DNA of 64,000 nucleotides from Escherichia phage IrisVonRoten. The stretch lies in the sequence record MZ501075. One strand, written 5' to 3'. Below, piece by piece: positions 30,217-46,399 of the stretch. Made by a program: the position numbers and the translations under genes. How positions within the stretch are numbered: position 1 is the stretch's first letter; every line of letters begins with the position of its first letter. The notes below the pieces were generated by a model. It had not been told where the DNA came from. It searched no databases and saw only the letters and a program-made list of their open reading frames with translations.

Positions 30217-30798
30217 ATGAAATTAGAGAATTTTAAAGTAATCCCAGAATATCCAGAATACTTAATCTCTCCATACGGAGAGGTTTACTCTACCAAGAGT
30301 AATAAATTACTTACACATCATTTAGGCAGTGCAGGATACCCGTTTGTAACGTTCTATGAACAGGGTAAAAATGTTTCTGTTGTACTGCATAGATTATTGG
30401 CTAGAGTATTTAAAGATTTACCTTCGCTAGAATCTGAACTAGAGGTGGATCACAAAGATAGGAATAAATTGAACTTTGCCCTGGATAATCTAGTTGTCAT
30501 GACCAAGGAAGATCACAGAGTAAAAACTACACTTGAAAGAGGACATATAATAGGTGGTAACAAGTGCCCTTATTGTAGTAAACAAATAAATTCTTCAGCT
30601 AAAACTTGTTTTAATTGTAAACCTAAGAGTAACCCTGCTATTACAGCAGAGCAAATAGAATATTGGGTAATAAATTATTCGTGGGTTAAAGCATCAAAAG
30701 AGCTGGGACTATCTGATAATGGTCTACGTAAACGTTATAAATCCTTAACAGGTAAAGATCCAAAAAGTATTAAGAAGAAGGTTAGCCAAGTCGGTTAA
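30217..30798 (+). CDS. HNH homing-endonuclease-like protein
   Basis: EVDHKDRNKLNFALDNLVVMTKEDH (HNH core) plus zinc-finger CPYC..CFNC. Confidence 0.55.
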   Translation: MKLENFKVIPEYPEYLISPYGEVYSTKSNKLLTHHLGSAGYPFVTFYEQGKNVSVVLHRLLARVFKDLPSLESELEVDHKDRNKLNFALDNLVVMTKEDHRVKTTLERGHIIGGNKCPYCSKQINSSAKTCFNCKPKSNPAITAEQIEYWVINYSWVKASKELGLSDNGLRKRYKSLTGKDPKSIKKKVSQVG

Positions 30799-30848
30799 GG
30801 CTGGGGTCTCTGAAATCCTGATCAGTGGTTCAAATCCACTACCTTCTG
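30776..30848 (+). tRNA. tRNA-Gln (anticodon CTG), overlapping 3' end of HNH gene
   Basis: Acceptor agaaggt/accttct, anticodon loop ctctgaa, T-arm agtgg-ttcaaat-ccact. Confidence 0.55.
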
Positions 30849-30857
30849 CCAAACAAT

Positions 30858-30932
30858 TGGGGATTAGCTTAGCTTGGCCTAAAGCTTCGGCCTTTGAAGT
30901 CGAGATCATTGGTTCAAATCCAATATCCCCTG
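30858..30932 (+). tRNA. tRNA (anticodon unresolved, possibly CCT)
   Basis: Acceptor ggggat/atcccc, T-arm attgg-ttcaaat-ccaat; anticodon loop non-canonical. Confidence 0.45.
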
Positions 30933-30946
30933 CCAGCCAAATTAAT

Positions 30947-31018
30947 GCGTGATTAGTTCAGTGGCTAGAATAACTGGCTTCCAACCAGTAGACACGAGTT
31001 CGACTCTCGTATCCCGCA
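30947..31018 (+). tRNA. tRNA-Gly (anticodon TCC)
   Basis: Anticodon arm actgg-cttccaa-ccagt, T-arm acgag-ttcgact-ctcgt, one acceptor mismatch. Confidence 0.6.
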
Positions 31019-31035
31019 CCAAATAAGGAATCTCT

Positions 31036-31287
31036 ATGCACGTTTTTGAGTTTCGTAATAAAAGTACCGATAAACGAGTTATCATTATTGGGGAAACATA
31101 CCGAGCTTATGAACAAACTGACGGCTCTGTTATCTTGAATGATGAAAAAGGAGGTTTTAGCTTTTATCCAGAAGAACCTTACGAAGAGTTTCGAAAACAA
31201 TTTAACCTAGACTGGAGAAAGCATTTAAACACTGTTGCTTCATCTGTAGTATTGCCAACTACCAGTACTGTACTCTCTAATGGCTGA
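31036..31287 (+). CDS. hypothetical protein (83 aa)
   Basis: ORF track. Confidence 0.35.
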   Translation: MHVFEFRNKSTDKRVIIIGETYRAYEQTDGSVILNDEKGGFSFYPEEPYEEFRKQFNLDWRKHLNTVASSVVLPTTSTVLSNG

Positions 31288-31454
31288 CAACCTAAAAGTA
31301 AAGATTGATAAACAAAAGAAACGTGTAGAAGTAGAGATTGGTGAAGAACGTGTTGCCTTTACTTTTGAATTTCTACAGCAAATGGCAATGACAGTTATGA
31401 CTGATAAGTCCCCTGTTATTGAAAAAGAAATCCCGTTGAAATAACGGGATTATC

Positions 31455-31526
31455 GCTCCTAAAGCATTGCTGGCGATGCAGTTGCCTTGTAAGCATCTGA
31501 ACCGGGTTCGATTCCTGGTGGGAGCA
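31455..31526 (+). tRNA. tRNA-Thr (anticodon TGT)
   Basis: Acceptor gctccta/tgggagc, D-stem gcat/atgc, anticodon loop cttgtaa, T-arm ccggg-ttcgatt-cctgg. Confidence 0.6.
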
Positions 31527-31544
31527 CCAAATTTAAAAATTCAT

Positions 31545-31573
31545 TTGCTTTCTCTCTTATTTATCGCTATAAT
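31545..31573 (+). promoter_or_regulatory. T5-type early promoter
   Basis: ttgctttctctcttatttatcgctataat. Confidence 0.55.
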
Positions 31574-31603
31574 ATTTATATAAATTAATGAGAGGGAAAC
31601 CAA

Positions 31604-31897
31604 ATGAAACGTTATCTTTCTGTAGTATTCCAAACTGGTGGCCAAAGATACACCTATGAATTTCCATCTTCTTGGAAAATCAAAGAGGGTGATCAAGTAG
31701 TAGTGCTAACACCGCGTGAAGAGTATAAAGTAGTAACGGTTAAACAAGTATTTCCAAAAGATCATGAACCAGCTAAAGGCATCCGCTATAAGATGATTCA
31801 TGGTGTGGTTCGTCAAGTACCACGAACTGAGGTAGAAGTAGATAAGACTGGAGAAGCTAAATTTCATTATACTTCTTACCTAAACGAGAGGCGATAA
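31604..31897 (+). CDS. hypothetical protein (97 aa)
   Basis: ORF after RBS gagagggaaacc. Confidence 0.45.
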   Translation: MKRYLSVVFQTGGQRYTYEFPSSWKIKEGDQVVVLTPREEYKVVTVKQVFPKDHEPAKGIRYKMIHGVVRQVPRTEVEVDKTGEAKFHYTSYLNERR

Positions 31898-34219: not shown

Positions 34220-34508
34220 GTTTATTATTGCACTGATGATCTCCGCAGTTAGTTTCGGTTCTCTGGCATCTACCAAAGTTTCTATGAAAAATGGTAATGT
34301 TAAAGTCCAACAGAACGGCATTATTACCGAGTATGGTAAAGTTCGTGATGTTAAAGAACGTAATGGTAAAGTAGAGGTATACACTAACAAAAATTTCTCT
34401 ACACCAGCAGTAACTATTCACCGTAATGGTAATATTACTACCCAGCGTTCGAACAATTCAGACTCCTTCACTTGCCGTTACGACTGTGATATTGAGATGG
34501 AAGAATGA
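34212..34508 (+). CDS. secreted small protein (signal peptide)
   Basis: MNKFIIALMISAVSFGSLAS signal-like N-terminus; start after RBS ggagg. Confidence 0.45.
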   Translation: MNKFIIALMISAVSFGSLASTKVSMKNGNVKVQQNGIITEYGKVRDVKERNGKVEVYTNKNFSTPAVTIHRNGNITTQRSNNSDSFTCRYDCDIEMEE

Positions 34509-35014
34509 TTACACAAGAAAGGTTAAAAGAACTGCTGATATATGATCCAGAAACAGGATTATTTTCTAGACGTCTAAAAAGTGGTAGAATAAAACCTATA
34601 AATAATAAGCCTAATAACTATGGGTATATTCAGATTAGAGTTGGAGATGGACACAGGGAACTAGCGCATAGATTAGCCTTCTTGTTTATGGAAGGGTATA
34701 TTCCTGAATTTGTTGATCATATCAATAGAATTAGGGATGATAATAGGTGGAGTAATCTCAGAGATAGTTCTAGGCAGGAAAATAATAGAAATAGGACTGC
34801 TACTAGCAATTCGGGATACTTAGGAGTATCTTGGGATACTCATCTCCAGAAAGGGAGAGTTTATACTAATAATAACGAAGGTATTAGAGTTTACGGTGGT
34901 CTATTCGATTATGAAGACTTAGAATCTGCAGTATACAAAGCTAATGGATTACGATTAGAATTGCACGGAACTCTAGCAGTCATCGAAGAGTTTAATGGGT
35001 TTCCTAAAGAATAA
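34505..35014 (+). CDS. HNH homing-endonuclease-like protein (paralog family, copy 1)
   Basis: MITQERLKELL..HRLAFLFMEGYIPEFVDHINRIRDDNRWSNLR; paralogous to 41913 and 45863 ORFs. Confidence 0.6.
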   Translation: MITQERLKELLIYDPETGLFSRRLKSGRIKPINNKPNNYGYIQIRVGDGHRELAHRLAFLFMEGYIPEFVDHINRIRDDNRWSNLRDSSRQENNRNRTATSNSGYLGVSWDTHLQKGRVYTNNNEGIRVYGGLFDYEDLESAVYKANGLRLELHGTLAVIEEFNGFPKE

Positions 35015-35324
35015 CAGAGAGAAGAACGTGAAAAGACTAAACATCAATAGCACAGTGCAGATTCCAGCAACTAAGGATGTTTTAACATTCCTACGTAGTG
35101 AAAACGCTCAGTTTTGGCATGACTATATTCAGGAAAATAAAAATAATCCAGGTGTAGTTGCCTTTGCCAAAAAACGTATCGAAGAATATAAAGATCCAGA
35201 GATTAAAGATGGGATGATTACTATGCAATTGTGGGTAGCCATGAATACGTTTGGACCCACTATGAGTCTAGGAGTTACTCCACTGTTTACTAATATTCTA
35301 ATTAATGAAAAGGATCTGAAATGA
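34995..35324 (+). CDS. hypothetical protein (109 aa)
   Basis: ORF track. Confidence 0.35.
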   Translation: MGFLKNNREKNVKRLNINSTVQIPATKDVLTFLRSENAQFWHDYIQENKNNPGVVAFAKKRIEEYKDPEIKDGMITMQLWVAMNTFGPTMSLGVTPLFTNILINEKDLK

Positions 35325-35605
35325 TTATTTCTCCGTTTGCTCTTTGGTTCGTCATTGGCTCTGTGGTTGCTATTTACAGCTGTGTTGACGATGTGTTCTT
35401 CTCGAAAAACAAGGCTGTATTATTAGAGCATCTGTGGCGAACTTCCCCAGATACTTTAATCTTCTTTGGTGCGGAAAAGGGATACAAGATCGCCCTAGTG
35501 ATGTTTATTATAATTGACACATTATTAGGGCCAGTAGCTCTCTACGGATTCTATCGTAAAACCCGCAAGATGAAACAACTCGAAGCTAAATACTTTGGGA
35601 AGTAA
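35321..35605 (+). CDS. small membrane protein (94 aa)
   Basis: Hydrophobic segments; ATGA overlap. Confidence 0.4.
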   Translation: MIISPFALWFVIGSVVAIYSCVDDVFFSKNKAVLLEHLWRTSPDTLIFFGAEKGYKIALVMFIIIDTLLGPVALYGFYRKTRKMKQLEAKYFGK

Positions 35606-35715
35606 AGAACTCGCGTAGGACCGAGTTGCGTCACCTGCAACTGTTACGGATAAGGGAGTCGTGCCCCTTAGTGCGGTAAGTGGTGAGGTTGCTGCTAGCA
35701 CTAACTGGAGATAAT

Positions 35716-36060
35716 ATGAGCTTTATTTTATTCATTGTAGCAGCATGGTTTATTATTGGTTTAGGCTATGCTATTGCAGTTATTCGTCATCTGGATGAAT
35801 ATTCTGCTGAATGGTTTATTAAGTACCTACGTTTAGACGATCAAGAATACGAGTTCGACAGTGATGAGGAAAGGCAGGCTGTCCAGTCAATGACTCCCAA
35901 AGAATGCTTGCTCTACATGCGTGTAATTGGTTTCTTTGGACTGTTGGTAGCAGGACCGCTAGGTCTTACTATTGCTCCTTACAAAGAAGTTATTGACGAC
36001 ATTAAACTATGGAGAACCGCTGGATCGCTACGCAAAGCTAGAGAAACTAATATTACATAA
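35716..36060 (+). CDS. membrane protein (about 114 aa)
   Basis: Start at ATG after RBS ctggag; two hydrophobic helices. Confidence 0.4.
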   Translation: MSFILFIVAAWFIIGLGYAIAVIRHLDEYSAEWFIKYLRLDDQEYEFDSDEERQAVQSMTPKECLLYMRVIGFFGLLVAGPLGLTIAPYKEVIDDIKLWRTAGSLRKARETNIT

Positions 36061-36913: not shown

Positions 36914-37335
36914 TAAAAAACTTTATTAGTTCTCTATGGCAAGGTAAATGGTATATCCTGGGAGCAGGTCTAGCGATAGGCATCGGGTTCGGTGCTTATC
37001 ACTTAGTAAATAAAGTGGAGACTTTGGCGGGAGATCTTGCGGTAGCTACTAAAAAGATTTCTTCTCTAGAGACTTCCCTTAATAAGGTGAAAGCTGAAAG
37101 CGAGCTTCGTGAGACTAGAATGAATCAGTATTTCACTATGAATAATATTTCGCAAGCAGATCTAGACAAAAAGATTAAGCAGTTAGATAAAGCTCTTAGT
37201 CGACAAGATATTATAGCTGCAAAGCCTGGATTGGTAACATTAATTGCTAAAAAGCAGAGTAAAGAGTTCGAGGAAAGATTAGCATGTCTTTCTGGTAGCC
37301 TGGAATACTGTGGGAATGAGCATAAAAATAAATAA
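36910..37335 (+). CDS. type-II membrane coiled-coil protein (i-spanin-like candidate)
   Basis: N-terminal TM helix then coiled-coil. Confidence 0.4.
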   Translation: MIKNFISSLWQGKWYILGAGLAIGIGFGAYHLVNKVETLAGDLAVATKKISSLETSLNKVKAESELRETRMNQYFTMNNISQADLDKKIKQLDKALSRQDIIAAKPGLVTLIAKKQSKEFEERLACLSGSLEYCGNEHKNK

Positions 37336-38014
37336 AGAAATCTTTAATAATGATTTAGAAGCTCAGGGCAGAACAGTAAGATTAGTTGGAGAGTATAAGC
37401 ATAATAAGACAAAAGCACAATTTAAGTGCCTTATATGTTCTAATATATGGTTAACAGCCCCTACAAATGTTAGGAATAAGGGTAGAGGGTGTCCAAAGTG
37501 TGCTGGCAATGAAAAATTAACCAAAGATAAGATTAACTTACTTCTTAGTCCTAGAAAAATCACATTACTAAGTGAATATACTAATTCTGCTTCTAAGTTA
37601 AAATTTTTATGTAATACGTGCTCCCATCAATGGGAGACAACTACCAACCATGTTTTACATGGTAGTGGTTGCCCAAATTGTGCTAAAACAGCTTGGGATA
37701 CTCAAGGATTTTTATACATATTTATATCTGATAAAGGTATAAAAATAGGAATAAGTAAGAATGTACAAAAGAGACTTTTAGAAGTTAGGTCTTGCAGTGG
37801 ATTTAAAGACTTGAGAATACTATCTTACTATCTTTGTGGTAATGGTTCAAAAGAAGAAACAGCTAAAATAGAAGCTGACCTACATAGTATCTATAAAGCT
37901 AAAAGATGCAATTATACAGGGTTTAGTGGTAGTACAGAGTTTTTCAATGTTCCCCCAAAAGAAGTAGAACAGTATATAGAAGCACATTATGAGGTGCGTA
38001 AATGCGCAAAATAA
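37310..38014 (+). CDS. zinc-ribbon repeat plus T5orf172-like domain protein
   Basis: Repeated CxxC..CPKC/CPNC units; C-terminal GFLYIFISDKGIKIGISKN..EFF. Confidence 0.5.
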   Translation: MGMSIKINKEIFNNDLEAQGRTVRLVGEYKHNKTKAQFKCLICSNIWLTAPTNVRNKGRGCPKCAGNEKLTKDKINLLLSPRKITLLSEYTNSASKLKFLCNTCSHQWETTTNHVLHGSGCPNCAKTAWDTQGFLYIFISDKGIKIGISKNVQKRLLEVRSCSGFKDLRILSYYLCGNGSKEETAKIEADLHSIYKAKRCNYTGFSGSTEFFNVPPKEVEQYIEAHYEVRKCAK

Positions 38015-38355
38015 AACTTGGAATACTGCTCGCAGCCGCAATCACAATCACAGGCTGTGCACAAGAAATAAAGCCAGAACCTACACATGAGCTACCAACA
38101 GCCCATGTGGATTGGCCTAAAGGACTTCAGCCTTGTAGCTTTGATTTCAAATTCGAAAAGAAATTAGCTACAAATGGCGAAGATGGCGTAGTAGTTGTTG
38201 TACCATATAAAGATTGGAATATGTTGGCAAAATGCCGGGAGGCAGAATATTCATATATCTCACGATTGACTAGTATGGTTTGCTTCTATCGCCAAGATTT
38301 ACAAGAAAAACGTTGCTTAGTTTACTATCCACCCATTAACAATAGGAAAGATTAA
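38002..38355 (+). CDS. lipoprotein (o-spanin-like candidate)
   Basis: Signal peptide with lipobox ITGC. Confidence 0.45.
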   Translation: MRKIKLGILLAAAITITGCAQEIKPEPTHELPTAHVDWPKGLQPCSFDFKFEKKLATNGEDGVVVVVPYKDWNMLAKCREAEYSYISRLTSMVCFYRQDLQEKRCLVYYPPINNRKD

Positions 38356-39107
38356 TGTCAGTATTAGTAGGTCTGCATGGTGAAGCTGGTTCGGGAAAAG
38401 ATACCGTTGCAAAATTAATTATCGATTGGTGTAATTACACGTATCCAACGTGTTTACCCCGTCGTTATAGTTTTGCTAAGCCCGTTTATGAACTTGCATC
38501 CGTAATCCTCGGTGTAACTCCAGAGTTTCTAGGAGAGCGCAGGGGAAAAGAGATTAACCAATGGTTTACGGTCACACAATCTCAATTGGAGCGAGCTAGA
38601 GACGTATGGTTTAAATACGGTATCGATAAGTTTGAAGACTTCTCGTACGTTTGGCCAATTTTTGAGGAAAAATATCTTAATCCTCAACAACTTATCTCAG
38701 AGAATAAAGAAGACGGACTTTATAGTTTATTTATTTCTACGAGAAAAATGTTACAGCTCGTAGGAACAGAGCTAGGAAGGCAGCTGGTACATGAACGCAT
38801 TTGGCTCATAATTCTGGAGCAATCCATCGCTAAAGACGACCCAGATGTCGCCGTAATAACAGATGTGAGATTCCCCAATGAAGGAGAGTTACTCAGAGAA
38901 ACGAACCATTTAGATATGGATTCTTTACTAGTAAATGTAGTGCCCGCTGAGCAGAAGTTCACTATTAAATCAGATCATCCATCTGAAAGTGGTATTCCTG
39001 CAAAATATATCACTCACGAATTAGTTAATAAATTCGATGGTATCAATAACCTTAAACTAGAAGTGTATAACTTCTGTGACTTAGAGCTAGAACCACTAGT
39101 TGGATAA
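38355..39107 (+). CDS. deoxynucleoside monophosphate kinase-like P-loop protein
   Basis: Walker A GLHGEAGSGKDT at N-terminus; 250 aa. Confidence 0.6.
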   Translation: MSVLVGLHGEAGSGKDTVAKLIIDWCNYTYPTCLPRRYSFAKPVYELASVILGVTPEFLGERRGKEINQWFTVTQSQLERARDVWFKYGIDKFEDFSYVWPIFEEKYLNPQQLISENKEDGLYSLFISTRKMLQLVGTELGRQLVHERIWLIILEQSIAKDDPDVAVITDVRFPNEGELLRETNHLDMDSLLVNVVPAEQKFTIKSDHPSESGIPAKYITHELVNKFDGINNLKLEVYNFCDLELEPLVG

Positions 39108-39119
39108 TCAAGGATCGCT

Positions 39120-39719
39120 ATGACTAATAAAAAAGAAGAAAAGACTAACCTGTTCCACTCCATTCGCCAATCTAATGAGTATACCTTCTTCTTTGATGAA
39201 GAACTTGGTCCGCCGGATGAATACCGTGATTTATCAATGGTACTTATGCAGGCAAATGAGGACGATGAAATTAATCTGATGATTAATGGCCCTGGTGGTT
39301 ATGTTGATACTGCTGCACAGTTATCTAACTTAATTGCTAATTGCCGTGGAACAGTTATAGGACACCTGATTGGCCCTAGTGCTTCTGCTTACTGCACAAT
39401 TTTTCTATCTTGTCATGGATGGGTAGTACATCCACATGCTACGCTAATGGGACACACGTTCTCTGGCGGGTTCTGTGAGAAAGGTCAAGAAATCAAGAAA
39501 GCCTATGAATCTTACAACAAGTTCGTAGAAGATATGATGCTAGATGTCTACTATCCGTTCTTCTCAATAGATGAAATCGACGAGATGGTAAAAGACAACA
39601 AAAATATCTATCTAGATAGCAAGGAAATCCATAAGCGTATTGAAATCTTGGCAAAATATCGATCTGAGCAATATAATAAAGCCCAGTTACCTCAATCCGA
39701 GGAGCATAACGAAGAGTAA
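39120..39719 (+). CDS. ClpP-like serine peptidase family protein
   Basis: INGPGGYVDTAAQ and GPSASAYCTIF resemble ClpP NSPGG / active-site Ser region. Confidence 0.45.
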   Translation: MTNKKEEKTNLFHSIRQSNEYTFFFDEELGPPDEYRDLSMVLMQANEDDEINLMINGPGGYVDTAAQLSNLIANCRGTVIGHLIGPSASAYCTIFLSCHGWVVHPHATLMGHTFSGGFCEKGQEIKKAYESYNKFVEDMMLDVYYPFFSIDEIDEMVKDNKNIYLDSKEIHKRIEILAKYRSEQYNKAQLPQSEEHNEE

Positions 39720-39728
39720 GTAATTTTA

Positions 39729-39758
39729 AGCCAGGGTTAAGTACCCTGGCTTTTCTTT
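39729..39758 (+). terminator. Rho-independent terminator
   Basis: gccagggttaagtaccctggc + TTTTCTTTT. Confidence 0.6.
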
Positions 39759-39821
39759 TATCTAAAATTCTTCTTGACAACGACAAAATTTTGTGCTCCA
39801 AAGAAAATCTTTAAAAACACA

Positions 39822-39850
39822 TTGTAATTTTCCTCCAAAATTAGTATAAT
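39822..39850 (+). promoter_or_regulatory. promoter upstream of holin gene (TTGTAA-17-TATAAT)
   Basis: ttgtaattttcctccaaaattagtataat. Confidence 0.5.
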
Positions 39851-39875
39851 GGTACTGGTTAGAGGAGGTTACAAA

Positions 39876-40532
39876 TTGGAAAAGTTCTTACAATTATTAA
39901 CAGTACTGCTCCAAGAAGCGAAAGACCCAGCATCGCTTCTTAAACGTCTGCTAACTATCTTAGTTGCTGTCATTATTTTCTTATTTGTTAGTAATACTAG
40001 TGAAGTGATGTCATTCTTAAAGACTTTTTCCACGTCTGCAGTTTTACAAGATTTACAAACCCAGAGGATAGATAACTTCCCTAATGTGGCGAGGGAAAAG
40101 AGCATGGTTCTCTTCTCTCAGACGGGTGCAGATGCTGTTTTTGTAGTCAAGTATAAACCAGATGCTATCAATGATTATTCCAATATTATTGCATGGGAAA
40201 GTAATGCGCAATTAGATAGGGCTGACTTGGCCGATAAAGCGGTAAATAAAACGTCTGAATTATACAGACGTCATTTAGAGGGCTTTAACTACGCATCGGA
40301 TTTAAGTGTAAGAGTAAATAAATATATGGGGTTAAATATACCTGCGTTTAAGAACGTTACTTTTAATTACATATACACTTGTCCGTACTTCAATCTAAAC
40401 AATATCTATGCTGGATATATTGGTATTGCTTGGAAAGATAATCCTGTAGATGCAGCCGATTCTGAGAAATTTAACGAGTATTTAACAAAGCTCTGTTCCC
40501 CACAACAGAGATCTTTAGGTAGATCAATATGA
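39876..40532 (+). CDS. holin (T5-type), likely TTG start
   Basis: 218 aa from TTG after RBS agaggagg; N-terminal TM helix; immediately upstream of endolysin with overlapping stop/start. Confidence 0.55.
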   Translation: MEKFLQLLTVLLQEAKDPASLLKRLLTILVAVIIFLFVSNTSEVMSFLKTFSTSAVLQDLQTQRIDNFPNVAREKSMVLFSQTGADAVFVVKYKPDAINDYSNIIAWESNAQLDRADLADKAVNKTSELYRRHLEGFNYASDLSVRVNKYMGLNIPAFKNVTFNYIYTCPYFNLNNIYAGYIGIAWKDNPVDAADSEKFNEYLTKLCSPQQRSLGRSI

Positions 40533-40942
40533 GTTTTAAATTTGGTAAAAATAGCGAAAAACAATTAGCTACCGTTAAGCCAGAGCTACAAAAAGTAGCT
40601 CGTAGAGCTTTAGAATTATCTCCTTATGATTTCACGATCGTACAGGGTATTCGTACAGTAGCACAAAGTGCCCAGAATATTGCTAATGGTACTTCATTCT
40701 TAAAAGATCCTAGTAAAAGCAAGCATATTACTGGGGATGCTCTTGATTTTGCTCCATACATTAATGGTAAGATTGATTGGAATGATTTAGAAGCATTTTG
40801 GGCAGTTAAAAAGGCTTTTGAACAAGCAGGTAAAGAACTAGGCATTAAACTTCGTTTTGGTGCTGATTGGAATGCTTCGGGAGATTATCACGATGAAATA
40901 AAACGTGGTACCTATGATGGCGGTCATGTCGAACTAGTTTAA
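40529..40942 (+). CDS. endolysin, L-alanyl-D-glutamate peptidase type
   Basis: 137 aa; matches T5 endolysin size; H..D..H zinc-peptidase-like residues. Confidence 0.75.
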   Translation: MSFKFGKNSEKQLATVKPELQKVARRALELSPYDFTIVQGIRTVAQSAQNIANGTSFLKDPSKSKHITGDALDFAPYINGKIDWNDLEAFWAVKKAFEQAGKELGIKLRFGADWNASGDYHDEIKRGTYDGGHVELV

Positions 40943-40953
40943 TTAATAACTTA

Positions 40954-40978
40954 GGCGGGAATATTCCCGCCTTTTTAG
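40954..40978 (+). terminator. Rho-independent terminator after lysis genes
   Basis: ggcgggaatattcccgcc + TTTTT. Confidence 0.65.
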
Positions 40979-41019
40979 GCAAAGGGGGCTTTAATAACTT
41001 TTGAAGATAGGAGAAAGCC

Positions 41020-41436
41020 ATGTTTGCAGAACTATTCACTATGATGCTACTAGGTATCTGGAAAATAAGTCTAGTAGTATTCGTTTTAATGATAGTCTTT
41101 ACTATCGTTGCATTAACTACCCGAAATAGCTTATTAATAAAGGTTATTCACGGACTAGAGTATATAATTATGGGTTCATTCGGCGTTTGTAAATGCAATT
41201 GCCATAGAGATACGAAATATTGTTGGTTATGGATGGAACTAGAGAATCCTATATCCATAGCTTTGGCTGTTTCATTCGGTATGATTCTTATGGCCCTTAC
41301 TCTAGCATTAATACCTTTGATGTTAGCTGGGGGAGTTACAGCGTATTTCACCCTTTTCTCCCCGATACTTATGTACTCAATTTATCCAATAACTATGTAT
41401 CTAGTTAGGAAAAGATTTATACATGCAGTAGATTAA
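41020..41436 (+). CDS. multi-pass membrane protein (138 aa)
   Basis: Several hydrophobic helices. Confidence 0.4.
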   Translation: MFAELFTMMLLGIWKISLVVFVLMIVFTIVALTTRNSLLIKVIHGLEYIIMGSFGVCKCNCHRDTKYCWLWMELENPISIALAVSFGMILMALTLALIPLMLAGGVTAYFTLFSPILMYSIYPITMYLVRKRFIHAVD

Positions 41437-41449
41437 GATAAAAAAGTAG

Positions 41450-41478
41450 TTGACTTTTAGCCCTAGTTATTATATAAT
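41450..41478 (+). promoter_or_regulatory. promoter (TTGACT-17-TATAAT)
   Basis: ttgacttttagccctagttattatataat. Confidence 0.55.
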
Positions 41479-41511
41479 ATATACATAAATTAGTTAAGAA
41501 AGGTATATATT

Positions 41512-41916
41512 ATGTCTGATCGTTTCTACACTCAAATGGCGGAACATTATAACATGGCCCCATATGAGTTGAACATCGCATTACGTGACCTCAATTCACC
41601 AGAGCGTAAAAAACTTGAGAAGAGGGCAGGAACTACTATGTCTAAAGGCAAGAAACTTACTCGTATTGATCTTAATAACATGCTGACCGAAATGCTTGGT
41701 GTGAATATTGAGGGTGCGAAGTTGCCTCTCAATGTTCTTGAAGCTATGTTGGATAAAGTAAAGAATAAAACCTACAAAAAGGTAGAAGTCCCTGAAGGGC
41801 GTTTAAAAGCGCCTTACCAGGCAGCATTAACAGAATGTTTAGGAACTACTCTAGATCTCAGCACTGCAACTGTTAGGTGCATGAAAAACTTCTTGGAGGC
41901 CATTAATAAATTGTGA
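41512..41916 (+). CDS. hypothetical protein (134 aa)
   Basis: ORF after RBS aaaggtat. Confidence 0.45.
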   Translation: MSDRFYTQMAEHYNMAPYELNIALRDLNSPERKKLEKRAGTTMSKGKKLTRIDLNNMLTEMLGVNIEGAKLPLNVLEAMLDKVKNKTYKKVEVPEGRLKAPYQAALTECLGTTLDLSTATVRCMKNFLEAINKL

Positions 41917-42452
41917 TAACACAAGAAAGATTAAAGGAATTACTAGATTATAACCCGGAAACGGGTGTGTTTACCCGGTTAATAAGTGTTGGAGGCCAAA
42001 AAGTAGGTAGTATTGCTGGTACTCTAAGGAAAGATGGATATATACAAATCCGAGTTGATAGAAATCGTTATTATGCCCATCAGCTAGCTTTTCTTTTTAT
42101 GGAAGGTTATTTACCAGAAATAGTAGATCATATAAATCGTATACGAAATGATAATAGGTGGGTCAATCTTAGGGAATCCAATAGTCAGAAGAACAACAGA
42201 AATAGGAACACTAAAAGTAAATCTGGCTACTTGGGGGTCTTCTGGGATACCCAAAAACAAAAGTGGAGAATAACTATTAGAGATTCTACAGGTAAAAATA
42301 TTCATGGTGGTTATTTTAACTACTTAGACCTAAGATTAGCAGTCCAAAGAGCTAACGAACTCAGATTAAAATTACACGGACCCGATGCTATTCTAGAAAC
42401 TTTCAACCCTACCAAGCTATTACCAACTTTAGAGGATTTAAATAATGAGTAA
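41913..42452 (+). CDS. HNH homing-endonuclease-like protein (paralog family, copy 2)
   Basis: MITQERLKELLDYNPETG..HQLAFLFMEGYLPEIVDHINRIRNDNRW. Confidence 0.6.
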   Translation: MITQERLKELLDYNPETGVFTRLISVGGQKVGSIAGTLRKDGYIQIRVDRNRYYAHQLAFLFMEGYLPEIVDHINRIRNDNRWVNLRESNSQKNNRNRNTKSKSGYLGVFWDTQKQKWRITIRDSTGKNIHGGYFNYLDLRLAVQRANELRLKLHGPDAILETFNPTKLLPTLEDLNNE

Positions 42453-42738
42453 TAAATTAGTCTATCTATTAAAAGGTTCCACGTGTCGTCCTTGTGCTCT
42501 TTTTGAGCCAGTATTTGATAAAGTAGTCAATGAATATAATTTGGAAGTCCATAAAGAGACTGATAATACAGAATTAATGCAGAAGTTCGGAGTAAGAGCT
42601 GTTCCTGTAGTAGTTCTGGCGGATCGCTTACCTAATGGTCGAGTAGAAGCTAATCATATTTTGATTGGACGTCAGCTTCGTAAAGAAACTATGCACGAAG
42701 CTATTAAAAATTTCCTGGACGATAATCCAGAGGATTAA
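42445..42738 (+). CDS. thioredoxin/glutaredoxin-fold protein
   Basis: CRPC redox-like motif near N-terminus; 97 aa. Confidence 0.45.
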   Translation: MSNKLVYLLKGSTCRPCALFEPVFDKVVNEYNLEVHKETDNTELMQKFGVRAVPVVVLADRLPNGRVEANHILIGRQLRKETMHEAIKNFLDDNPED

Positions 42739-42745
42739 TAAACCA

Positions 42746-42778
42746 AGCCTGATCTTAGCGGATCAGGCTTTTATTTTA
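42746..42778 (+). terminator. Rho-independent terminator
   Basis: agcctgatcttagcggatcaggct + TTTTATTTT. Confidence 0.65.
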
Positions 42779-42779
42779 C

Positions 42780-42808
42780 TTGCTTTTTGCTAAAAATTTT
42801 GGTACAAT
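42780..42808 (+). promoter_or_regulatory. promoter (TTGCTT-17-TACAAT)
   Basis: ttgctttttgctaaaaattttggtacaat. Confidence 0.5.
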
Positions 42809-42898
42809 ACTTATATAAATTGATGAGAAGGCTATCTTCGTATGGGTTCTAGTCATACTAAGGGCTATCTACGCACTACAAGAAATAGGAGTATTCCA

Positions 42899-43276
42899 AT
42901 GAACTATGCATATCTTATTATTAATAATAACGTAGTTTGTGGTACTCGCGCTGTTGAGATGGGTATTACAGAAGAAAAGTATAAGTCACTTCCAGAAAAG
43001 GAACAACAATATTATGTTGAAGAAGCTGCTTGGGAGTATGCTGAGGTTTATCCCGAAGAACGTGAAGATCGTCTTACTCTTGTTGTGTCTCTGGGTTTGG
43101 TTGGCTATGATACCGAAGTTGATACAGACCTAGAGACTTTGGAGGAGTGGGAAGAGTTAGATATCTCAGCTAAAAACTCCTTAATCCGTGAAGCCTTTTG
43201 GGAAGCTGTAGATTGCCACGTAGTATTTGAGCCTAATGATGAAGAGGCTGAAAAACATACCAACCATTGGAGATAA
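42899..43276 (+). CDS. acidic hypothetical protein
   Basis: Start at ATG after RBS aataggag. Confidence 0.4.
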   Translation: MNYAYLIINNNVVCGTRAVEMGITEEKYKSLPEKEQQYYVEEAAWEYAEVYPEEREDRLTLVVSLGLVGYDTEVDTDLETLEEWEELDISAKNSLIREAFWEAVDCHVVFEPNDEEAEKHTNHWR

Positions 43277-44392: not shown

Positions 44393-44913
44393 TGAAAGTC
44401 TGCTTTTGGAGTGATCTACACTTAGGACATGCAAATATTACTAAATTCAGGCCAATCTTTTCTAGTATGGAAGAGCATGACGAATTTATTATGGATACCA
44501 TTACATCCATGAAGGATAAGCGTACAGTATTCTATATTTTAGGGGATGCATTTGTATCTAGAGATGGTTTGGAGAAGTTTGGGAAACTCTTCAGCAATGT
44601 TAGAACTACATTAGTTTTGGGGAACCACGACTTAGAACGAGAGGGGTTATCTTTCAAAGACTTAGTAGGAGTAGTAGATAGTGTACAATCCCTAGTTAAG
44701 TATAAAAACTTTTGGCTTTCCCATGCTCCAGTACATCCAGAAGAGTTAAGAGGCAAGAAGAACTTACACGGACATACTCACTTTGAGTTAATGGGAGACC
44801 CTCGTTATATTAACGTTTGTGTAGAGTATGCAAAATCACCGGTACGCCTGGAAGACATCATGAATGGTAAGTACACTTCTCATGATAAAACTAGCTGGAT
44901 GTTAAATGTCTAA
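44392..44913 (+). CDS. metallophosphoesterase (second, smaller)
   Basis: SDLHLGH..GD..GNHD..GHTH motifs. Confidence 0.55.
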   Translation: MKVCFWSDLHLGHANITKFRPIFSSMEEHDEFIMDTITSMKDKRTVFYILGDAFVSRDGLEKFGKLFSNVRTTLVLGNHDLEREGLSFKDLVGVVDSVQSLVKYKNFWLSHAPVHPEELRGKKNLHGHTHFELMGDPRYINVCVEYAKSPVRLEDIMNGKYTSHDKTSWMLNV

Positions 44914-45021
44914 GTATATAGCTGAGGCTATCATTAAACGAGTCATACAAGCAGTAGCAATACTTATAATCATTTGTATTGCTATTGGTACAGGATTAGG
45001 CATTTTAATTAAAAGTTTTAT

Positions 45022-45050
45022 TTGCTAAAATGCTTAAGTTTCTGTATAAT
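45022..45050 (+). promoter_or_regulatory. T5-type early promoter
   Basis: ttgctaaaatgcttaagtttctgtataat. Confidence 0.55.
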
Positions 45051-45080
45051 TACTTTATAAATTGATGAGAAGGAAACAAA

Positions 45081-45512
45081 ATGAACAAAGTTGATAAAGC
45101 TCTAGTTTTCGCAGCAGCAGATAAGTTTGAACAAGTTAAGGCAACTTTCCGAACCTTGTTTCAGTCTTACGTTCAGGATAAGTCTAACCCTATCTCTGAA
45201 CGATTAATGGTCTGGGAATGTCATGCTTGCAATGCCCTGCTAATTGCTGATTACCGTAGTGATATAGATAAAGATCTTTGTGAAATCCTTATCCCCGAGG
45301 AAGCAGAACGTTATCAGCTAATCTCTTTCCAAGATTTGGCAGAGCAGATCATCCCTGATGATCTTTGGGACAAATATTACGGTGATCCTGAAGACGAAGG
45401 AATGGCTCCAGAAGCATGTATTGAGTTAATCTGTAAAGATTATCCTGAAATTGCGGAAAAATTTGAAAAAGTTTTTGCTTCTGAGTTCTCTGGTGTTGTT
45501 AACGATTGGTAA
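45081..45512 (+). CDS. hypothetical acidic protein (143 aa)
   Basis: ORF after RBS gagaaggaaac. Confidence 0.45.
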   Translation: MNKVDKALVFAAADKFEQVKATFRTLFQSYVQDKSNPISERLMVWECHACNALLIADYRSDIDKDLCEILIPEEAERYQLISFQDLAEQIIPDDLWDKYYGDPEDEGMAPEACIELICKDYPEIAEKFEKVFASEFSGVVNDW

Positions 45513-45529
45513 GTAATTAAAAAATTCAG

Positions 45530-45558
45530 TTGCTTTAAGCCTTAAAATTCTGTATAAT
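45530..45558 (+). promoter_or_regulatory. T5-type early promoter
   Basis: ttgctttaagccttaaaattctgtataat. Confidence 0.55.
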
Positions 45559-45590
45559 AAGTTCATAAATTAATGAGAGAGGAAATTCTA

Positions 45591-45869
45591 ATGGAAAACA
45601 TGACTAAAGACTTCGACGCCTCTAACCTTACCAAGACTGAAATGGCCAATGTATTAGCAATTCTCCTCGACATGCAAGGATTTGAGGGGCAACTGATGAA
45701 AATGTCTATTCCGGCGATGAAGAAGATGTACGATTCTCTTAACAAGAACGCTATGGCCTTTAATTTAGCAAAACAAGAGGCACGCTTTGCTAAGGAGCAT
45801 CAAGCAGTGGCAGAACGCCGAGCAGCTAGCTTTGAGCGTGAAGTCAAGCAATTAAAGAAAAAATGTTAA
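45591..45869 (+). CDS. hypothetical protein (about 92 aa)
   Basis: Start after RBS gagagagg. Confidence 0.4.
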   Translation: MENMTKDFDASNLTKTEMANVLAILLDMQGFEGQLMKMSIPAMKKMYDSLNKNAMAFNLAKQEARFAKEHQAVAERRAASFEREVKQLKKKC

Positions 45870-46399
45870 CACAAGAAAGATTAAAAGAGTTATTTGAATA
45901 CCGCCCGGAAACGGGCGAGTTTATTAGATTAGTAAGTATAGGTAATCAAAAAGCTGGTAGTATTGCTGGCTGTCTAAGAAAGACTGGGTATATAGAAATA
46001 AGAGTAGATAAAGTAGGCTACAAAGCACATCGACTAGCCTTCCTCTATATGGAAGGTTATATTCCCAAAGTAATAGACCACGTAAATCGTATACGGAGTG
46101 ATAATAGGTGGTCTAACCTTAGAGAATCTAATAACCAAGAAAATTCTAGAAATAGAACAGCAAGAAGCAAATCAGGGTATTTGGGAATCTTTTGGCATAA
46201 ACAAAAGCAAAAATGGGAAGTAAGGGTTGTAGATTCATACAAAAAGTTAGTACATGGCGGGTATTTTGATTTCCTAGATCTAGAATTAGCGGTTCAAAGA
46301 GCTAATGAACTACGTTTAGAACTACAGGGGGCTAACGCTGTTATAGAAACTTTTGACCATACAAAACCCTTACCTACTTTAGAGGAATTAAATAAATGA
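45863..46399 (+). CDS. HNH homing-endonuclease-like protein (paralog family, copy 3)
   Basis: MLTQERLKELFEYRPETG..HRLAFLYMEGYIPKVIDHVNRIRSDNRW. Confidence 0.6.
   Translation: MLTQERLKELFEYRPETGEFIRLVSIGNQKAGSIAGCLRKTGYIEIRVDKVGYKAHRLAFLYMEGYIPKVIDHVNRIRSDNRWSNLRESNNQENSRNRTARSKSGYLGIFWHKQKQKWEVRVVDSYKKLVHGGYFDFLDLELAVQRANELRLELQGANAVIETFDHTKPLPTLEELNK

What the first reader, a model, noticed from the sequence alone, without database searches (positions are those of the whole stretch)
30217..46399. Four HNH endonuclease genes, three of them close paralogs, plus two T5orf172-domain genes
ORFs at 34505, 41913 and 45863 share an N-terminal MxTQERLKEL..ETG motif and an HNH core (HRLAFLxMEGY..DH.NRIR.DNRW). 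A fourth HNH gene (30217-30798) overlaps the 5' end of tRNA-Gln. T5orf172-type domains occur at 27598 and 37310. Such density suggests active homing or intron-less mobile endonuclease cassettes, or site-specific nickases.
Basis: partly seen in the sequence, partly recalled or inferred. Interest (0 to 1): 0.5.

Follow-up and report, generated by a model that had tools for sequence, protein, structure and literature searches.

The report
Free-standing homing endonuclease genes, T5-like phage
The window comes from a T5-like phage whose early and tRNA gene region carries six selfish, mobile nuclease genes (four HNH, two T5orf172); this kind of element is already well described in T5 and its relatives, so the finding is real but ordinary.

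Summary
All six ORFs exist, are intact and carry the stated domains.

**What the six genes are**
- 30217-30798 is the ortholog (94% aa) of T5 hegD, which one T5 record names F-TflII.
- 34505, 41913 and 45863 are paralogs, 57-68% identical. Each has an I-HmuI-like HNH nuclease domain fused to an AP2 DNA-binding domain.
- 27598 and 37310 (start probably 37316) are T5orf172 (GIY-YIG-type) genes.

**Why they look mobile**
- The window is a Tequintavirus (T5-like) early/tRNA region.
- Each gene is present at its locus in only 0.7-19% of related phage records.
- The insert boundaries coincide with gene boundaries.
- Start/stop overlaps and an SD-carrying 3' tail keep the neighbouring genes translated.
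- Several loci hold alternative HNH alleles or other inserts in other phages.

**Site signatures**
- hegD travels with a diverged tRNA-Gln pair.
- hegD is flanked by a 16-bp imperfect repeat, across which it has been deleted in phiAPCEc03 and DT57C.
- The 41913 allele is linked to a 74%-diverged allele of the upstream gene.
- Alleles at one locus share near-identical ends but have very different cores.

**Verdict**
These are free-standing homing endonuclease genes, as already described for T5 F-Tfl enzymes and T5orf172/HNH-AP2 genes. Cleavage activity, nick versus double-strand cut, and current mobility were not testable here. Interest is low.

The parts
27598..28071 (+). T5orf172 (GIY-YIG-type) putative homing endonuclease no. 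1, 157 aa. It is inserted between the T5.065 ortholog and tRNA-Lys. Its start overlaps the upstream ORF by 11 nt and its stop lies 10 nt inside tRNA-Lys.
   Evidence: Pfam MUG113 8e-19 and T5orf172 2e-14; phrog_5032. Relative to T5 the insert is window 27600-28061, replacing 12 bp. 82 of 442 related records cover at least 80% of gene plus flanks.
30177..30192 (+). Left copy of the imperfect 16-bp direct repeat GAAGAAnnTnAGCCAA that flanks hegD. It lies in the 3' end of the T5.062 ortholog.
   Evidence: The pattern has only two matches in the 64-kb window. phiAPCEc03 and DT57C lack hegD and are joined exactly within this repeat, at different crossover points.
30217..30798 (+). hegD ortholog, which T5 record AY543070 names F-TflII. 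The protein has NUMOD4, HNH_3, a zinc ribbon and a C-terminal tail, 193 aa.
   Evidence: 94% aa identity to T5 hegD at the same locus. Pfam HNH_3 and NUMOD4. 17 of 444 records cover at least 80% of gene plus flanks.
30774..30789 (+). Right copy of the 16-bp repeat. It forms the 5' end of tRNA-Gln(CUG).
30776..30935 (+). tRNA-Gln(CUG) plus tRNA-Gln(UUG). This allele pair travels with hegD and is only about 55-60% identical to the tRNA-Gln pair of phages without hegD.
   Evidence: ARAGORN and Rfam at 56.9 and 54.5 bits. Alignment A3. The window-type pair occurs in 30 records and the alternative pair in 332.
34505..35014 (+). HNH-AP2-type endonuclease paralog, 169 aa, at the T5 hegE (F-TflV) locus. 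It is a mosaic allele: the 3' end is identical to T5 hegE while the core is only 37-75% identical.
   Evidence: Pfam HNH_3 8.4e-14. 67% aa identity to T5 hegE. DNA identity profile. The insert 34496-35006 replaces 5 bp in VSe12. 16 of 439 records. 100% identical in vB_Sen_I1.
37301..37310 (+). Left copy of the 10-bp duplication TGGAATACTG that flanks T5orf172 gene no. 2. The sequence is single-copy in T5, where it sits inside the i-/o-spanin overlap.
37316..38014 (+). Putative homing endonuclease no. 2, with CapR/DUF4379 zinc fingers plus a T5orf172 domain. The ORF opens at GTG 37310; the likely start is ATG 37316. It is inserted between the normally overlapping i-spanin and o-spanin genes and supplies a new i-spanin C-terminus and a new SD and N-terminus for the o-spanin.
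   Evidence: Pfam CapR 2.3e-16, DUF4379 2.8e-13, MUG113 1.6e-12 and T5orf172 7e-9; phrog_681. Junction sequences. 17 of 444 records.
38019..38028 (+). Right copy of the 10-bp duplication TGGAATACTG.
41512..41916 (+). Upstream gene (T5.038 ortholog), present here as a diverged allele linked to the 41913 HNH gene. The boundary is sharp: about 99-100% identity to all relatives before about 41548, then about 74% to the HEG-less phages but 99% to vB_Sen_H9.
   Evidence: Only 2 of 283 records carry this allele together with the HNH gene.
41913..42452 (+). HNH-AP2 endonuclease paralog, 179 aa, inserted between the T5.038 ortholog and the thioredoxin gene. Its GTG start overlaps the upstream TGA stop. 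Its 3' tail (..LPTLEDLNNE) carries a GAGG SD and overlaps the thioredoxin ATG.
   Evidence: Pfam HNH_3 1.2e-12; AP2 weak, 0.18, over model positions 2-53. Junctions. Absent from T5, oldekolle, VSe12 and pork29. Other HNH alleles occupy the same site in DaisyDussoix, Shivani and SHSML-45.
45573..45869 (+). Upstream gene (T5.032 ortholog) in its 'type A' allele, which has a 27-bp extra segment. Every sampled phage with the HNH gene at this locus has type A, but some phages without it do too.
   Evidence: Alignment. About 84 records are at least 95% identical, against 60 records with an HNH gene at this locus.
45863..46399 (+). HNH-AP2 endonuclease paralog, 178 aa. It replaces the small gene T5.031 (window 45852-46404 against 190 bp in T5). 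Its ATG overlaps the upstream stop (ATGTTAA). Its 3' tail (..LPTLEELNK) carries a GAGG SD and the ATG of the downstream gene.

Best explanation
The six genes are free-standing (intron-less) homing endonuclease genes (HEGs) of two nuclease superfamilies, embedded in the early operons and tRNA cluster of a T5-like phage.

**Shown here**
1. They encode intact nuclease-plus-DNA-binding proteins:
   - an I-HmuI-like HNH domain with an AP2 domain (34505, 41913, 45863);
   - NUMOD4 with HNH and a zinc ribbon (30217, the F-TflII ortholog);
   - T5orf172, with or without CapR-type zinc fingers (27598 and 37310).
2. Each is present in a minority of otherwise syntenic relatives.
3. The inserts begin and end at gene borders and keep their neighbours translatable. 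This is achieved by overlapping start/stop codons, a 3' tail that supplies an SD and start context, and a duplicated 10-bp segment that lets both spanin genes survive.
4. The same sites hold other HNH alleles, other small genes or nothing in other phages.
5. HEG-bearing alleles are linked to diverged neighbouring sequence.

**Inferred mechanism**
- In a mixed infection, the enzyme made from the HEG-bearing genome recognises a long degenerate site in or next to the HEG-less allele. That site is probably disrupted or diverged in its own genome.
- The enzyme nicks or cuts the site. By analogy with I-HmuI/I-BasI, the HNH enzymes probably nick one strand.
- Recombination-dependent repair or replication then copies the HEG, together with adjacent markers, from the HEG-bearing genome.
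- For hegD the co-transferred and presumably resistant cargo is the tRNA-Gln pair.
- Loss occurs by recombination between short flanking repeats, as seen in phiAPCEc03 and DT57C.
- New specificities probably arise by exchange or rapid divergence of the gene core between conserved, locus-specific ends.
- Placing the HEG stop codons inside tRNA genes probably limits expression through tRNA processing of the transcript. This was proposed earlier for SegB and the F-Tfl genes.
For: **Domains and fold**
- Pfam and PHROGs assign the nuclease and DNA-binding domains.
- The AF2 model of the 45863 protein has pLDDT 93.3.
- Of 656 homologs, many carry PF00847 plus PF13392.
- H73, N81, N94 and N97 are invariant and D72 nearly invariant in 35 family members.

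**Orthology**
- The 30217 protein is 94% identical to T5 hegD, named F-TflII in AY543070.

**Presence/absence, gene plus flanks covered at least 80%**
- 41913: 2 of 283 records.
- 45863: 60 of 356.
- 34505: 16 of 439.
- 30217: 17 of 444.
- 37310: 17 of 444.
- 27598: 82 of 442.

**Breakpoints and coupling**
- Breakpoints at gene borders and translational coupling.

**Alternative occupants of the same sites**
-.

**Linked diverged flanks**
- tRNA-Gln pair.
- Upstream gene of 41913 at 74% identity, with a sharp boundary.
- Upstream gene of 45863.

**HEG loss**
- Loss through the 16-bp repeat.

**Mosaic alleles**
- Ends 95-100% identical, cores 50-75% identical.

**Literature**
- HEGs of the F-Tfl type are the main source of differences among T5-like genomes (PMC10644984).
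- T5orf172 HEGs are abundant in T5-like phages, carry CapR-type zinc fingers and sit at recombination boundaries, and HNH-AP2 is a recognised HEG class (PMC10448857).
- Processing of the tRNA-cluster transcript was proposed to limit SegB and F-Tfl expression (PMC2330249).
Against: - No cleavage, nicking or biased-inheritance data exist for these alleles, and no target site could be identified computationally.
- Linkage of flank alleles is one-directional. About 24 records, Shivani among them, have the HEG-type upstream allele at the 45863 locus without the HNH gene. DaisyDussoix has an HNH gene at the thioredoxin locus with the HEG-less-type upstream allele.
- At the 45863 site the HNH gene replaces another small gene (T5.031) rather than filling an empty site. 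Non-nuclease indels also occur nearby, for example 42842-43276. General recombination alone could therefore produce part of the pattern.
- The AP2 match in Pfam is below the gathering score.
- The N-terminal 65 aa of the 27598 protein has no recognised DNA-binding domain.
- Record counts include duplicate GenBank/RefSeq entries and come from megablast, so the occupancy fractions are approximate.
Confidence: 0.85

Rival explanations
1. The nuclease genes are ordinary accessory ('moron'-like) genes. They are shuffled among T5-like phages by general homologous and illegitimate recombination and do not drive their own spread. Any present role would be something else, for example degrading or excluding competing phage DNA, or nothing at all.
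For: - At 45863 the HNH gene is an alternative to another small gene, T5.031.
- Non-nuclease ORFs also come and go at the same or nearby sites: oldekolle 7721-8140 at the 34505 site, and 42842-43276.
- The HEG-type flank allele occurs without the HEG.
- hegD is lost by simple repeat recombination.
Against: - All six variable genes of this stretch that carry a recognisable domain are nucleases fused to DNA-binding modules, with conserved catalytic residues.
- The hegD ortholog is named as a characterised site-specific endonuclease of T5 (Akulenko 2004, as cited).
- The same families are experimentally or comparatively tied to homing in other phages.
- Sharp identity boundaries coincide with the nuclease genes.
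Confidence: 0.1
2. One or more of the HNH proteins is the enzyme that introduces the characteristic single-strand interruptions (nicks at Pu^GCGC sites) into T5-type virion DNA, or serves another conserved phage function such as packaging.
For: - The closest solved structure, I-HmuI, is a nicking enzyme.
- T5-like phages carry site-specific nicks.
- The T5 nick-site sequence in dnk is conserved in the window at about 38536.
Against: - T5 itself has the nicks but lacks the 41913 and 45863 genes.
- Each gene is present in only 0.7-19% of related records, whereas nicks are a family trait.
- The genes lie in early operons far from the packaging genes.
- The window lacks T5 hegA, hegF and hegH, so no single heg gene is conserved.
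Confidence: 0.03
3. The genes are decaying or domesticated remnants. They would be DNA-binding proteins (AP2 or zinc-finger) that act as regulators and have lost nuclease activity.
For: - CapR-type domains act as repressors in phage satellites.
- AP2 domains are transcription-factor modules in plants.
- The 34505 allele lacks the 10-aa C-terminal tail of its paralogs.
Against: - The ORFs are full length.
- The HNH D-H...N...N residues are invariant or nearly so across 35 homologs.
- The T5orf172 and MUG113 domains score well above threshold.
- Presence remains polymorphic.
Confidence: 0.02

Closest known systems
Phage T5 F-Tfl HNH endonucleases: hegC = F-TflI, hegD = F-TflII, hegA = F-TflIV, hegE = F-TflV, hegF = F-TflVI, hegH = P-TflVIII (Akulenko et al. 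2004; AY543070 annotation)
   Same: - Window 30217-30798 is the hegD/F-TflII ortholog: 94% aa identity, the same locus and the same overlap with tRNA-Gln(CUG).
- Window 34505 sits at the hegE/F-TflV locus and is 67% identical.
- 41913 and 45863 belong to the same HNH-AP2 paralog family as hegE, and are 39-42% identical to hegH over about 117-120 aa.
   Different: - 41913 and 45863 occupy loci that are HEG-free in T5: the T5.038/thioredoxin junction and the T5.031 position.
- The 34505 allele has a diverged core.
- T5 hegA, hegC, hegF and hegH are absent from the window.
- The primary paper was not available, so the cleavage properties of the F-Tfl enzymes are not cited from it.
I-HmuI / I-BasI (intron-encoded HNH nicking homing endonucleases of Bacillus phages SPO1 and Bastille; PDB 1u3e)
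   Same: - Both fall in Pfam HNH_3, His-Me finger group 2.
- Both are monomeric nuclease-plus-DNA-binding designs, expected to nick one strand.
   Different: - The window genes are free-standing rather than intron-encoded.
- The DNA-binding module is an AP2 domain, not the I-HmuI C-terminal helices/HTH.
- There is no detectable sequence match to any PDB chain.
- Nicking is untested.
ICP1-type T5orf172 HEGs and HNH-AP2 ('IPA-HNH') HEGs (Barth, Dunham & Seed 2023, PMC10448857)
   Same: - The domain architectures are the same: CapR/zinc-finger repeats plus T5orf172, and N-terminal HNH plus C-terminal AP2.
- That paper reports T5orf172 genes as abundant in T5-like phages, HEGs at boundaries of genetic exchange, and recombination between HEG domains.
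- The window shows the same patterns.
   Different: - The host phage lineage differs.
- The 27598 protein lacks any recognised zinc-finger domain.
- The insertion sites here are early accessory operons, the tRNA cluster and the spanin pair, rather than terminase, nrd or capsid neighbourhoods.
Phage T4 SegB (GIY-YIG free-standing HEG in the tRNA gene cluster; PMC2330249)
   Same: - It is a free-standing HEG inside a phage tRNA cluster.
- Its ORF end abuts or overlaps a tRNA, so tRNA processing may curb expression.
- It gives preferential inheritance of the tRNA region in crosses.
- hegD with its linked tRNA-Gln pair, and T5orf172 gene no. 1 ending in tRNA-Lys, have the same layout.
   Different: - The nuclease family differs for hegD (HNH).
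- No cross data exist for the T5-like genes.

Membership tests
HNH_3 / I-HmuI-like His-Me finger homing endonucleases | HNH_3 domain scoring above the Pfam gathering score | tested here: met
   All four HNH genes score 36.6-55.6 bits against a cut-off of 24.8.
HNH_3 / I-HmuI-like His-Me finger homing endonucleases | Catalytic beta-beta-alpha-metal residues (D-H general base pair, metal-binding and structural Asn) conserved | tested here: met
   In the 45863 protein H73, N81, N94 and N97 are invariant and D72 nearly invariant across 35 homologs. The three window paralogs and T5 hegE/hegF share VDH...N...N. hegD has EVDHKDRN...DN...H. Equivalence to I-HmuI D74/H75/N96 is from memory and was not aligned residue by residue.
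HNH_3 / I-HmuI-like His-Me finger homing endonucleases | I-HmuI-like fold of the nuclease domain | tested here: met
   [not shown]
HNH-AP2 homing endonucleases | C-terminal AP2 DNA-binding domain | tested here: met
   [not shown]
Free-standing homing endonuclease gene (functional class) | Presence/absence polymorphism at a fixed locus among close relatives | tested here: met
   Searches give 2/283, 60/356, 16/439, 17/444, 17/444 and 82/442 records. Locus-by-locus comparison with 10 phages agrees.
Free-standing homing endonuclease gene (functional class) | Insertion between or at the ends of genes without destroying them; boundaries coincide with the HEG ORF | tested here: met
   Searches show start/stop overlaps (GTGA, ATGTTAA, ATGA), an SD-bearing 3' tail, and the 10-bp duplication that preserves both spanin ORFs.
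Free-standing homing endonuclease gene (functional class) | Co-conversion: HEG-linked alleles of flanking sequence | tested here: inconclusive
   In favour: the tRNA-Gln pair linked to hegD, and the upstream alleles of 41913 and 45863. Against: the HEG-type flank also occurs without the HEG (Shivani and about 24 records), and DaisyDussoix has an HNH gene with the other flank type.
Free-standing homing endonuclease gene (functional class) | The enzyme cleaves or nicks the HEG-less allele near the insertion site, and the gene is over-inherited in mixed infection | not testable with these tools
   This needs in vitro cleavage mapping and phage crosses.
T5orf172 (GIY-YIG superfamily) homing endonucleases | T5orf172/MUG113 nuclease domain above threshold | tested here: met
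   27598 scores 68.4 and 54.4 bits; 37310 scores 48.2 and 36.6 bits; the cut-offs are 22.3 and 20.
T5orf172 (GIY-YIG superfamily) homing endonucleases | N-terminal CapR/DUF723/DUF4397-type zinc-finger DNA-binding repeats (present in about 87% of such HEGs according to PMC10448857) | tested here: inconclusive
   Met for 37310, with CapR 2.3e-16 (2 stretches) and DUF4379 2.8e-13 (2 stretches). Not met for 27598, whose first 65 aa have no Pfam hit.
T5 F-TflII (hegD) | Orthology: high identity, the same flanking genes, and the same overlap with tRNA-Gln(CUG) | tested here: met
   94% aa identity. The locus lies between the T5.062 ortholog and tRNA-Gln. The name comes from the AY543070 annotation.
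T5 virion-DNA nicking enzyme | Conserved in all nick-bearing T5-like phages | tested here: not met
   41913 and 45863 are absent from T5. Every one of the six genes is in a minority of records.

The most novel reading that the evidence does not exclude
The HNH-AP2 genes may behave as exchangeable cassettes. At a given locus the first 45 nt or so and the last 90 nt or so, together with the coupling signals to the neighbouring genes, are kept 95-100% identical between phages, while the core that holds the nuclease and DNA-recognition surfaces is swapped or diverges to 50-75% identity. This would be a built-in way to switch target specificity in an arms race with resistant sites.

In parallel, hegD may move as a unit with its own cleavage-resistant tRNA-Gln gene pair. 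That pair persists after the HEG is deleted across a 16-bp repeat. If so, HEGs would be actively driving allelic replacement of phage tRNA genes.
Probability: 0.3. Interest if true: 0.4.

Novelty: already known. Interest (0 to 1): 0.17.

Why it matters
The result mainly serves correct annotation. These six genes are selfish mobile nucleases, not core phage functions, and they explain most of the local mosaicism between this phage and its relatives.

They also give convenient natural material for three things:
- rare-cutting or nicking enzymes with new specificities (three HNH-AP2 alleles in one genome, plus several diverged alleles at the same loci in relatives);
- study of HEG gain, loss and core swapping;
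- a test of whether a HEG can drag tRNA alleles through a phage population.

None of this changes the current understanding of homing endonucleases in T5-like phages.

Tried and rejected
- **Primary F-Tfl paper.** Akulenko 2004 (PMID 15456135) is not in the library. Statements about what F-TflI, II and IV cut are therefore not made. The F-Tfl names come from GenBank annotation, which corrected my initial assumption that hegD was F-TflIV.
- **More nuclease copies in the window.** tblastn with the six proteins and with T5 hegA, hegC, hegF and hegH found none. ORFs in the window-specific segments upstream are not nuclease-like by inspection but were not scanned against Pfam. The region 48-64 kb was checked only by tblastn.
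- **Donor of the diverged cores at the 45863 locus.** None of the sampled paralogs (hegE, alleles at the thioredoxin locus) stood out as a donor.
- **T5 virion nickase.** Considered and rejected on distribution.
- **Possible carried-over flank in the 3' tails.** The 3' tail of 41913 and 45863 (AACTTTAGAGGAnTTAAATAA) could be a carried-over copy of the 3' end of the T5.038 gene (AACTTCTTAGAGGCCATTAATAA). The similarity is short and largely SD plus stop context, so it stays a weak lead.
- **Strict HEG/flank linkage at 45863.** Tested and found to be one-directional only.
- **Apparent 144-bp 'insertion' in nrdD.** It is an in-frame 50-codon difference from the T5 record and most simply a deletion in T5. 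It is not an intron or intein.

Full report
**What the window is**

The 17-kb stretch matches several hundred T5-like phages (Demerecviridae: Tequintavirus and relatives) at 80-94% identity. No identical record exists. The best matches are phage H8, vB_Sen_I1 and oldekolle, at 93-94% over 81-85% of the query. A 7-kb contig named 'Salmonella phage S.Inf 5-2' is 100% identical over 27200-28500. Gene order follows the T5 early region and tRNA cluster, read in reverse complement of the T5 record. The window carries 25 tRNA genes between 18.8 and 32.4 kb.

**Check of the observation**

- All six ORFs are present and intact.
- Pfam gives HNH_3 above threshold for 30217, 34505, 41913 and 45863, with NUMOD4 also in 30217.
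- Pfam gives T5orf172 and MUG113 for 27598 and 37310, with two CapR and two DUF4379 zinc-finger stretches also in 37310.
- PHROGs agrees: HNH endonuclease families phrog_59 and phrog_99, and endonuclease phrog_681.
- The three paralogs are 57-68% identical in protein and share the quoted motifs.
- 30217-30798 overlaps tRNA-Gln(CUG) by 23 nt.
- The T5orf172 ORF at 27598 likewise ends 10 nt inside tRNA-Lys.
- The 37310 gene probably starts at ATG 37316.
- tblastn found no further copies in the window.

**Identity of the genes**

- 30217 is the ortholog of T5 hegD (94% aa, same locus). GenBank record AY543070 names that gene F-TflII. The same record names hegC F-TflI, hegA F-TflIV, hegE F-TflV, hegF F-TflVI and hegH P-TflVIII.
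- 34505 lies at the hegE/F-TflV locus and is 67% identical to it.
- 41913 and 45863 have no counterpart in T5. Near-identical genes are annotated as homing endonucleases elsewhere: oldekolle at 97% aa, and vB_Sen_H9 at 98.5% DNA identity over the whole 41913 locus.
- A homology search returned 656 relatives at E<=1e-5, many with precomputed AP2 plus HNH_3 domains.
- An AlphaFold model of the 45863 protein, built on a 35-sequence alignment, is confident (pLDDT 93.3).
- The paralogs are therefore an I-HmuI-like HNH nuclease of about 100 aa fused to an AP2 DNA-binding domain of about 55 aa. This is a recognised HEG architecture (the Shivani annotation says the same).
- The catalytic D-H...N...N residues are invariant or nearly so across the family.

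**Distribution**

Each gene was searched with about 400 bp of flank on each side against 50,697 phage records. The counts below are the records covering at least 80% of the query, out of all records with a match.

| Gene | Records covering >=80% | Records with a match |
|---|---|---|
| 41913 | 2 | 283 |
| 45863 | 60 | 356 |
| 34505 | 16 | 439 |
| 30217 | 17 | 444 |
| 37310 | 17 | 444 |
| 27598 | 82 | 442 |

The remaining records match the flanks only, or carry something else at the site. These are megablast counts and include duplicate GenBank/RefSeq entries, so they are approximate. Conversely, T5 hegA, hegF and hegH are absent from the window, leaving tight junctions.

**Anatomy of the insertions**

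- *T5orf172 no. 1.* Window 27600-28061 replaces 12 bp of T5 between T5.065 and tRNA-Lys.
- *34505.* Window 34496-35006 replaces 5 bp in VSe12. oldekolle and DaisyDussoix hold an unrelated ORF at this site.
- *41913.* In HEG-less phages the upstream gene ends ...GCCATTAATAACTATGAGTAA, overlapping the thioredoxin start. In the window the HNH GTG overlaps a new upstream stop (AAATTGTGA). The HNH 3' end (...TTAGAGGATTTAAATAATGAGTAA) recreates an SD and the overlapping start for thioredoxin.
- *45863.* The ATG overlaps the upstream stop (ATGTTAA). The 3' end (TTAGAGGAATTAAATAAATG) supplies the SD and ATG of the next gene. The cassette replaces the 165-bp gene T5.031.
- *T5orf172 no. 2.* It sits inside the overlap of the i-spanin and o-spanin genes. 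A 10-bp segment, TGGAATACTG, is single-copy in T5 but occurs on both sides of the insert here (37301-37310 and 38019-38028). Both spanin ORFs therefore survive, with a new i-spanin C-terminus and a new o-spanin SD and N-terminus (MRKI... in place of MFNW...).
- *Operon context.* 41913 and 45863 are each the second gene behind a T5-type early promoter. TTGACT...TATAAT occurs at about 41450-41480 and a similar box at about 45530-45558, and T5 promoters are annotated at the homologous places.

**Site signatures: hegD (30217)**

- Phages with hegD (window, T5, DaisyDussoix) carry a tRNA-Gln(CUG)/tRNA-Gln(UUG) pair only about 55-60% identical to the pair in phages without hegD (oldekolle, VSe12, vB_Sen_I1). 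The next gene, tRNA-Gly, does not co-vary.
- The window-type pair occurs in 30 records and the alternative pair in 332. A further 47 records match only the UUG half.
- hegD is bracketed by an imperfect 16-bp direct repeat, GAAGAAnnTnAGCCAA, at 30177-30192 and 30774-30789. These are the only two matches in the window.
- phiAPCEc03 and DT57C have the window-type tRNA pair but no hegD. They are joined exactly inside this repeat, at two different crossover points. The simplest reading is independent HEG loss by repeat recombination, leaving the linked tRNA allele behind.

**Site signatures: 41913**

- Identity to every relative is 99-100% up to about 41548. It then drops to about 74% across the upstream gene in HEG-less phages, while staying at 99% in vB_Sen_H9.
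- The thioredoxin site is a hot spot. It holds at least three very different HNH alleles (window/vB_Sen_H9; DaisyDussoix; Shivani/SHSML-45), a 131-aa ORF in vB_Sen_I1, or nothing.

**Site signatures: 45863**

- All sampled phages with the HNH gene share a 'type A' upstream allele, which has a 27-bp extra segment. T5, vB_Sen_I1 and pork29 have 'type B', at 82-83% identity.
- Shivani has type A without the HNH gene.
- Database-wide, about 84 records have type A at 95% identity or more, against 60 with an HNH gene at the locus. The linkage is therefore one-directional.

**Site signatures: mosaic alleles**

- At the 45863 locus the vB_Sen_H9 and DaisyDussoix genes are 95-100% identical to the window gene over the first 45 nt or so and the last 90 nt or so, but only 50-75% identical in between.
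- The 34505 gene and T5 hegE show the same pattern: 86% at the 5' end, 100% at the 3' end and 37-75% in the core.
- More broadly, abrupt changes in identity between the window and individual relatives often coincide with the nuclease genes. One example is the 97-99% block shared with vB_Sen_H9 from 38014 to 42824. This echoes the published observation that nuclease genes sit at boundaries of genetic exchange.

**Mechanism**

Shown here:
- the genes encode intact nucleases fused to DNA-binding modules;
- they are polymorphic;
- they are precisely bounded and translationally coupled to their neighbours;
- they are partly linked to diverged flanks.

Inferred from established knowledge of free-standing HEGs (T4 Seg/Mob, I-HmuI/I-BasI):
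- in co-infection the enzyme nicks or cuts the HEG-less allele near the insertion point;
- recombinational repair then copies the HEG plus neighbouring markers from the HEG-bearing genome;
- the HEG-bearing genome is protected because the site is interrupted or diverged.

By analogy with I-HmuI, the HNH enzymes may nick one strand. This was not tested. Ending the ORFs inside tRNA genes may lower expression through tRNA processing of the transcript, as proposed for SegB and the F-Tfl genes.

**Rivals**

- *Passive shuffling of accessory genes by general recombination.* This explains some features: replacement of T5.031, the neighbouring non-nuclease indels, and the one-directional linkage. It does not explain why the variable genes here are consistently nuclease-plus-DNA-binding fusions with conserved active sites.
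- *The T5 virion nickase.* This is excluded by distribution. T5 has nicks but lacks two of the genes, and no heg gene is conserved.
- *Domesticated regulators.* This is unlikely given the conserved catalytic residues.

**Comparison with what is known, and novelty**

- T5 HNH endonucleases F-TflI, II and IV were described in 2004 (cited).
- The BF23 genome paper states that such HEGs account for most differences among T5-like genomes.
- Barth et al. 2023 describe T5orf172 HEGs as abundant in T5-like phages, with CapR-type zinc fingers. They also describe HNH-AP2 HEGs, domain shuffling and positions at recombination boundaries.
- The same alleles are already annotated as homing endonucleases in public genomes.

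Four details worked out here are small additions and may not have been written up:
- the tRNA-Gln pair linked to hegD;
- hegD deletion across the 16-bp repeat;
- the un-nesting of the spanin pair by a T5orf172 gene;
- the conserved-ends, divergent-core HNH alleles.

Noticed in passing
window 27348-27423: T5 has tRNA-fMet between tRNA-Pro and the T5.065 ortholog. The window and vB_Sen_I1 instead carry a tRNA-like sequence with the same acceptor stem and CAU anticodon arm but different D and T arms. Neither ARAGORN nor Rfam calls it at E<=0.01. VSe12, which also has the adjacent T5orf172 gene, keeps the T5-type sequence.
   Followed up: partly
window 36914-36951; 23195-23759; 9649-9654: These are the sites where T5 carries hegF (F-TflVI), hegA (F-TflIV) and hegH (P-TflVIII, between nrdA and nrdB). 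The hegF and hegH genes are absent with tight junctions. At the hegA site the window has an unrelated 563 bp that includes tRNA-Leu(UAA).
   Followed up: partly
window 35250-36000: This segment covers two small membrane-protein genes (T5.049 and T5.048 orthologs). It is only 69-81% identical to each of the six relatives compared there, while the neighbouring sequence is 90-97% identical. It is an unusually diverged allele with no relation to the presence of the nuclease genes.
   Followed up: no
window 42842-43276: An acidic ORF (144 aa as listed, probably about 126 aa) lies just downstream of thioredoxin. It is present in oldekolle, vB_Sen_I1, SHSML-45 and VSe12 but absent from T5, vB_Sen_H9 and DaisyDussoix. 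It is a non-nuclease indel next to the 41913 cassette.
   Followed up: no
window about 38530-38545: The sequence around the annotated major T5 single-strand interruption in dnk (GAGAGCGCAGG, consensus Pu^GCGC) is conserved in the window.
   Followed up: no
window 18826-18900: ARAGORN calls a tRNA-Ser with the unusual anticodon ACU here. The region is syntenic with the T5 'RNAX, stable RNA of unknown function'.
   Followed up: no
window 13402-13851: A 149-aa ORF sits in a 491-bp segment that has no counterpart in T5. It is not nuclease-like by inspection and was not scanned against Pfam.
   Followed up: no
window 3900-5774 (minus strand): NrdD is 50 aa longer than in the T5 RefSeq record, through an in-frame block (DHFYNRASVSLGYIGCHEM...). 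This is most simply a deletion in the T5 record and not an intron or intein.
   Followed up: partly
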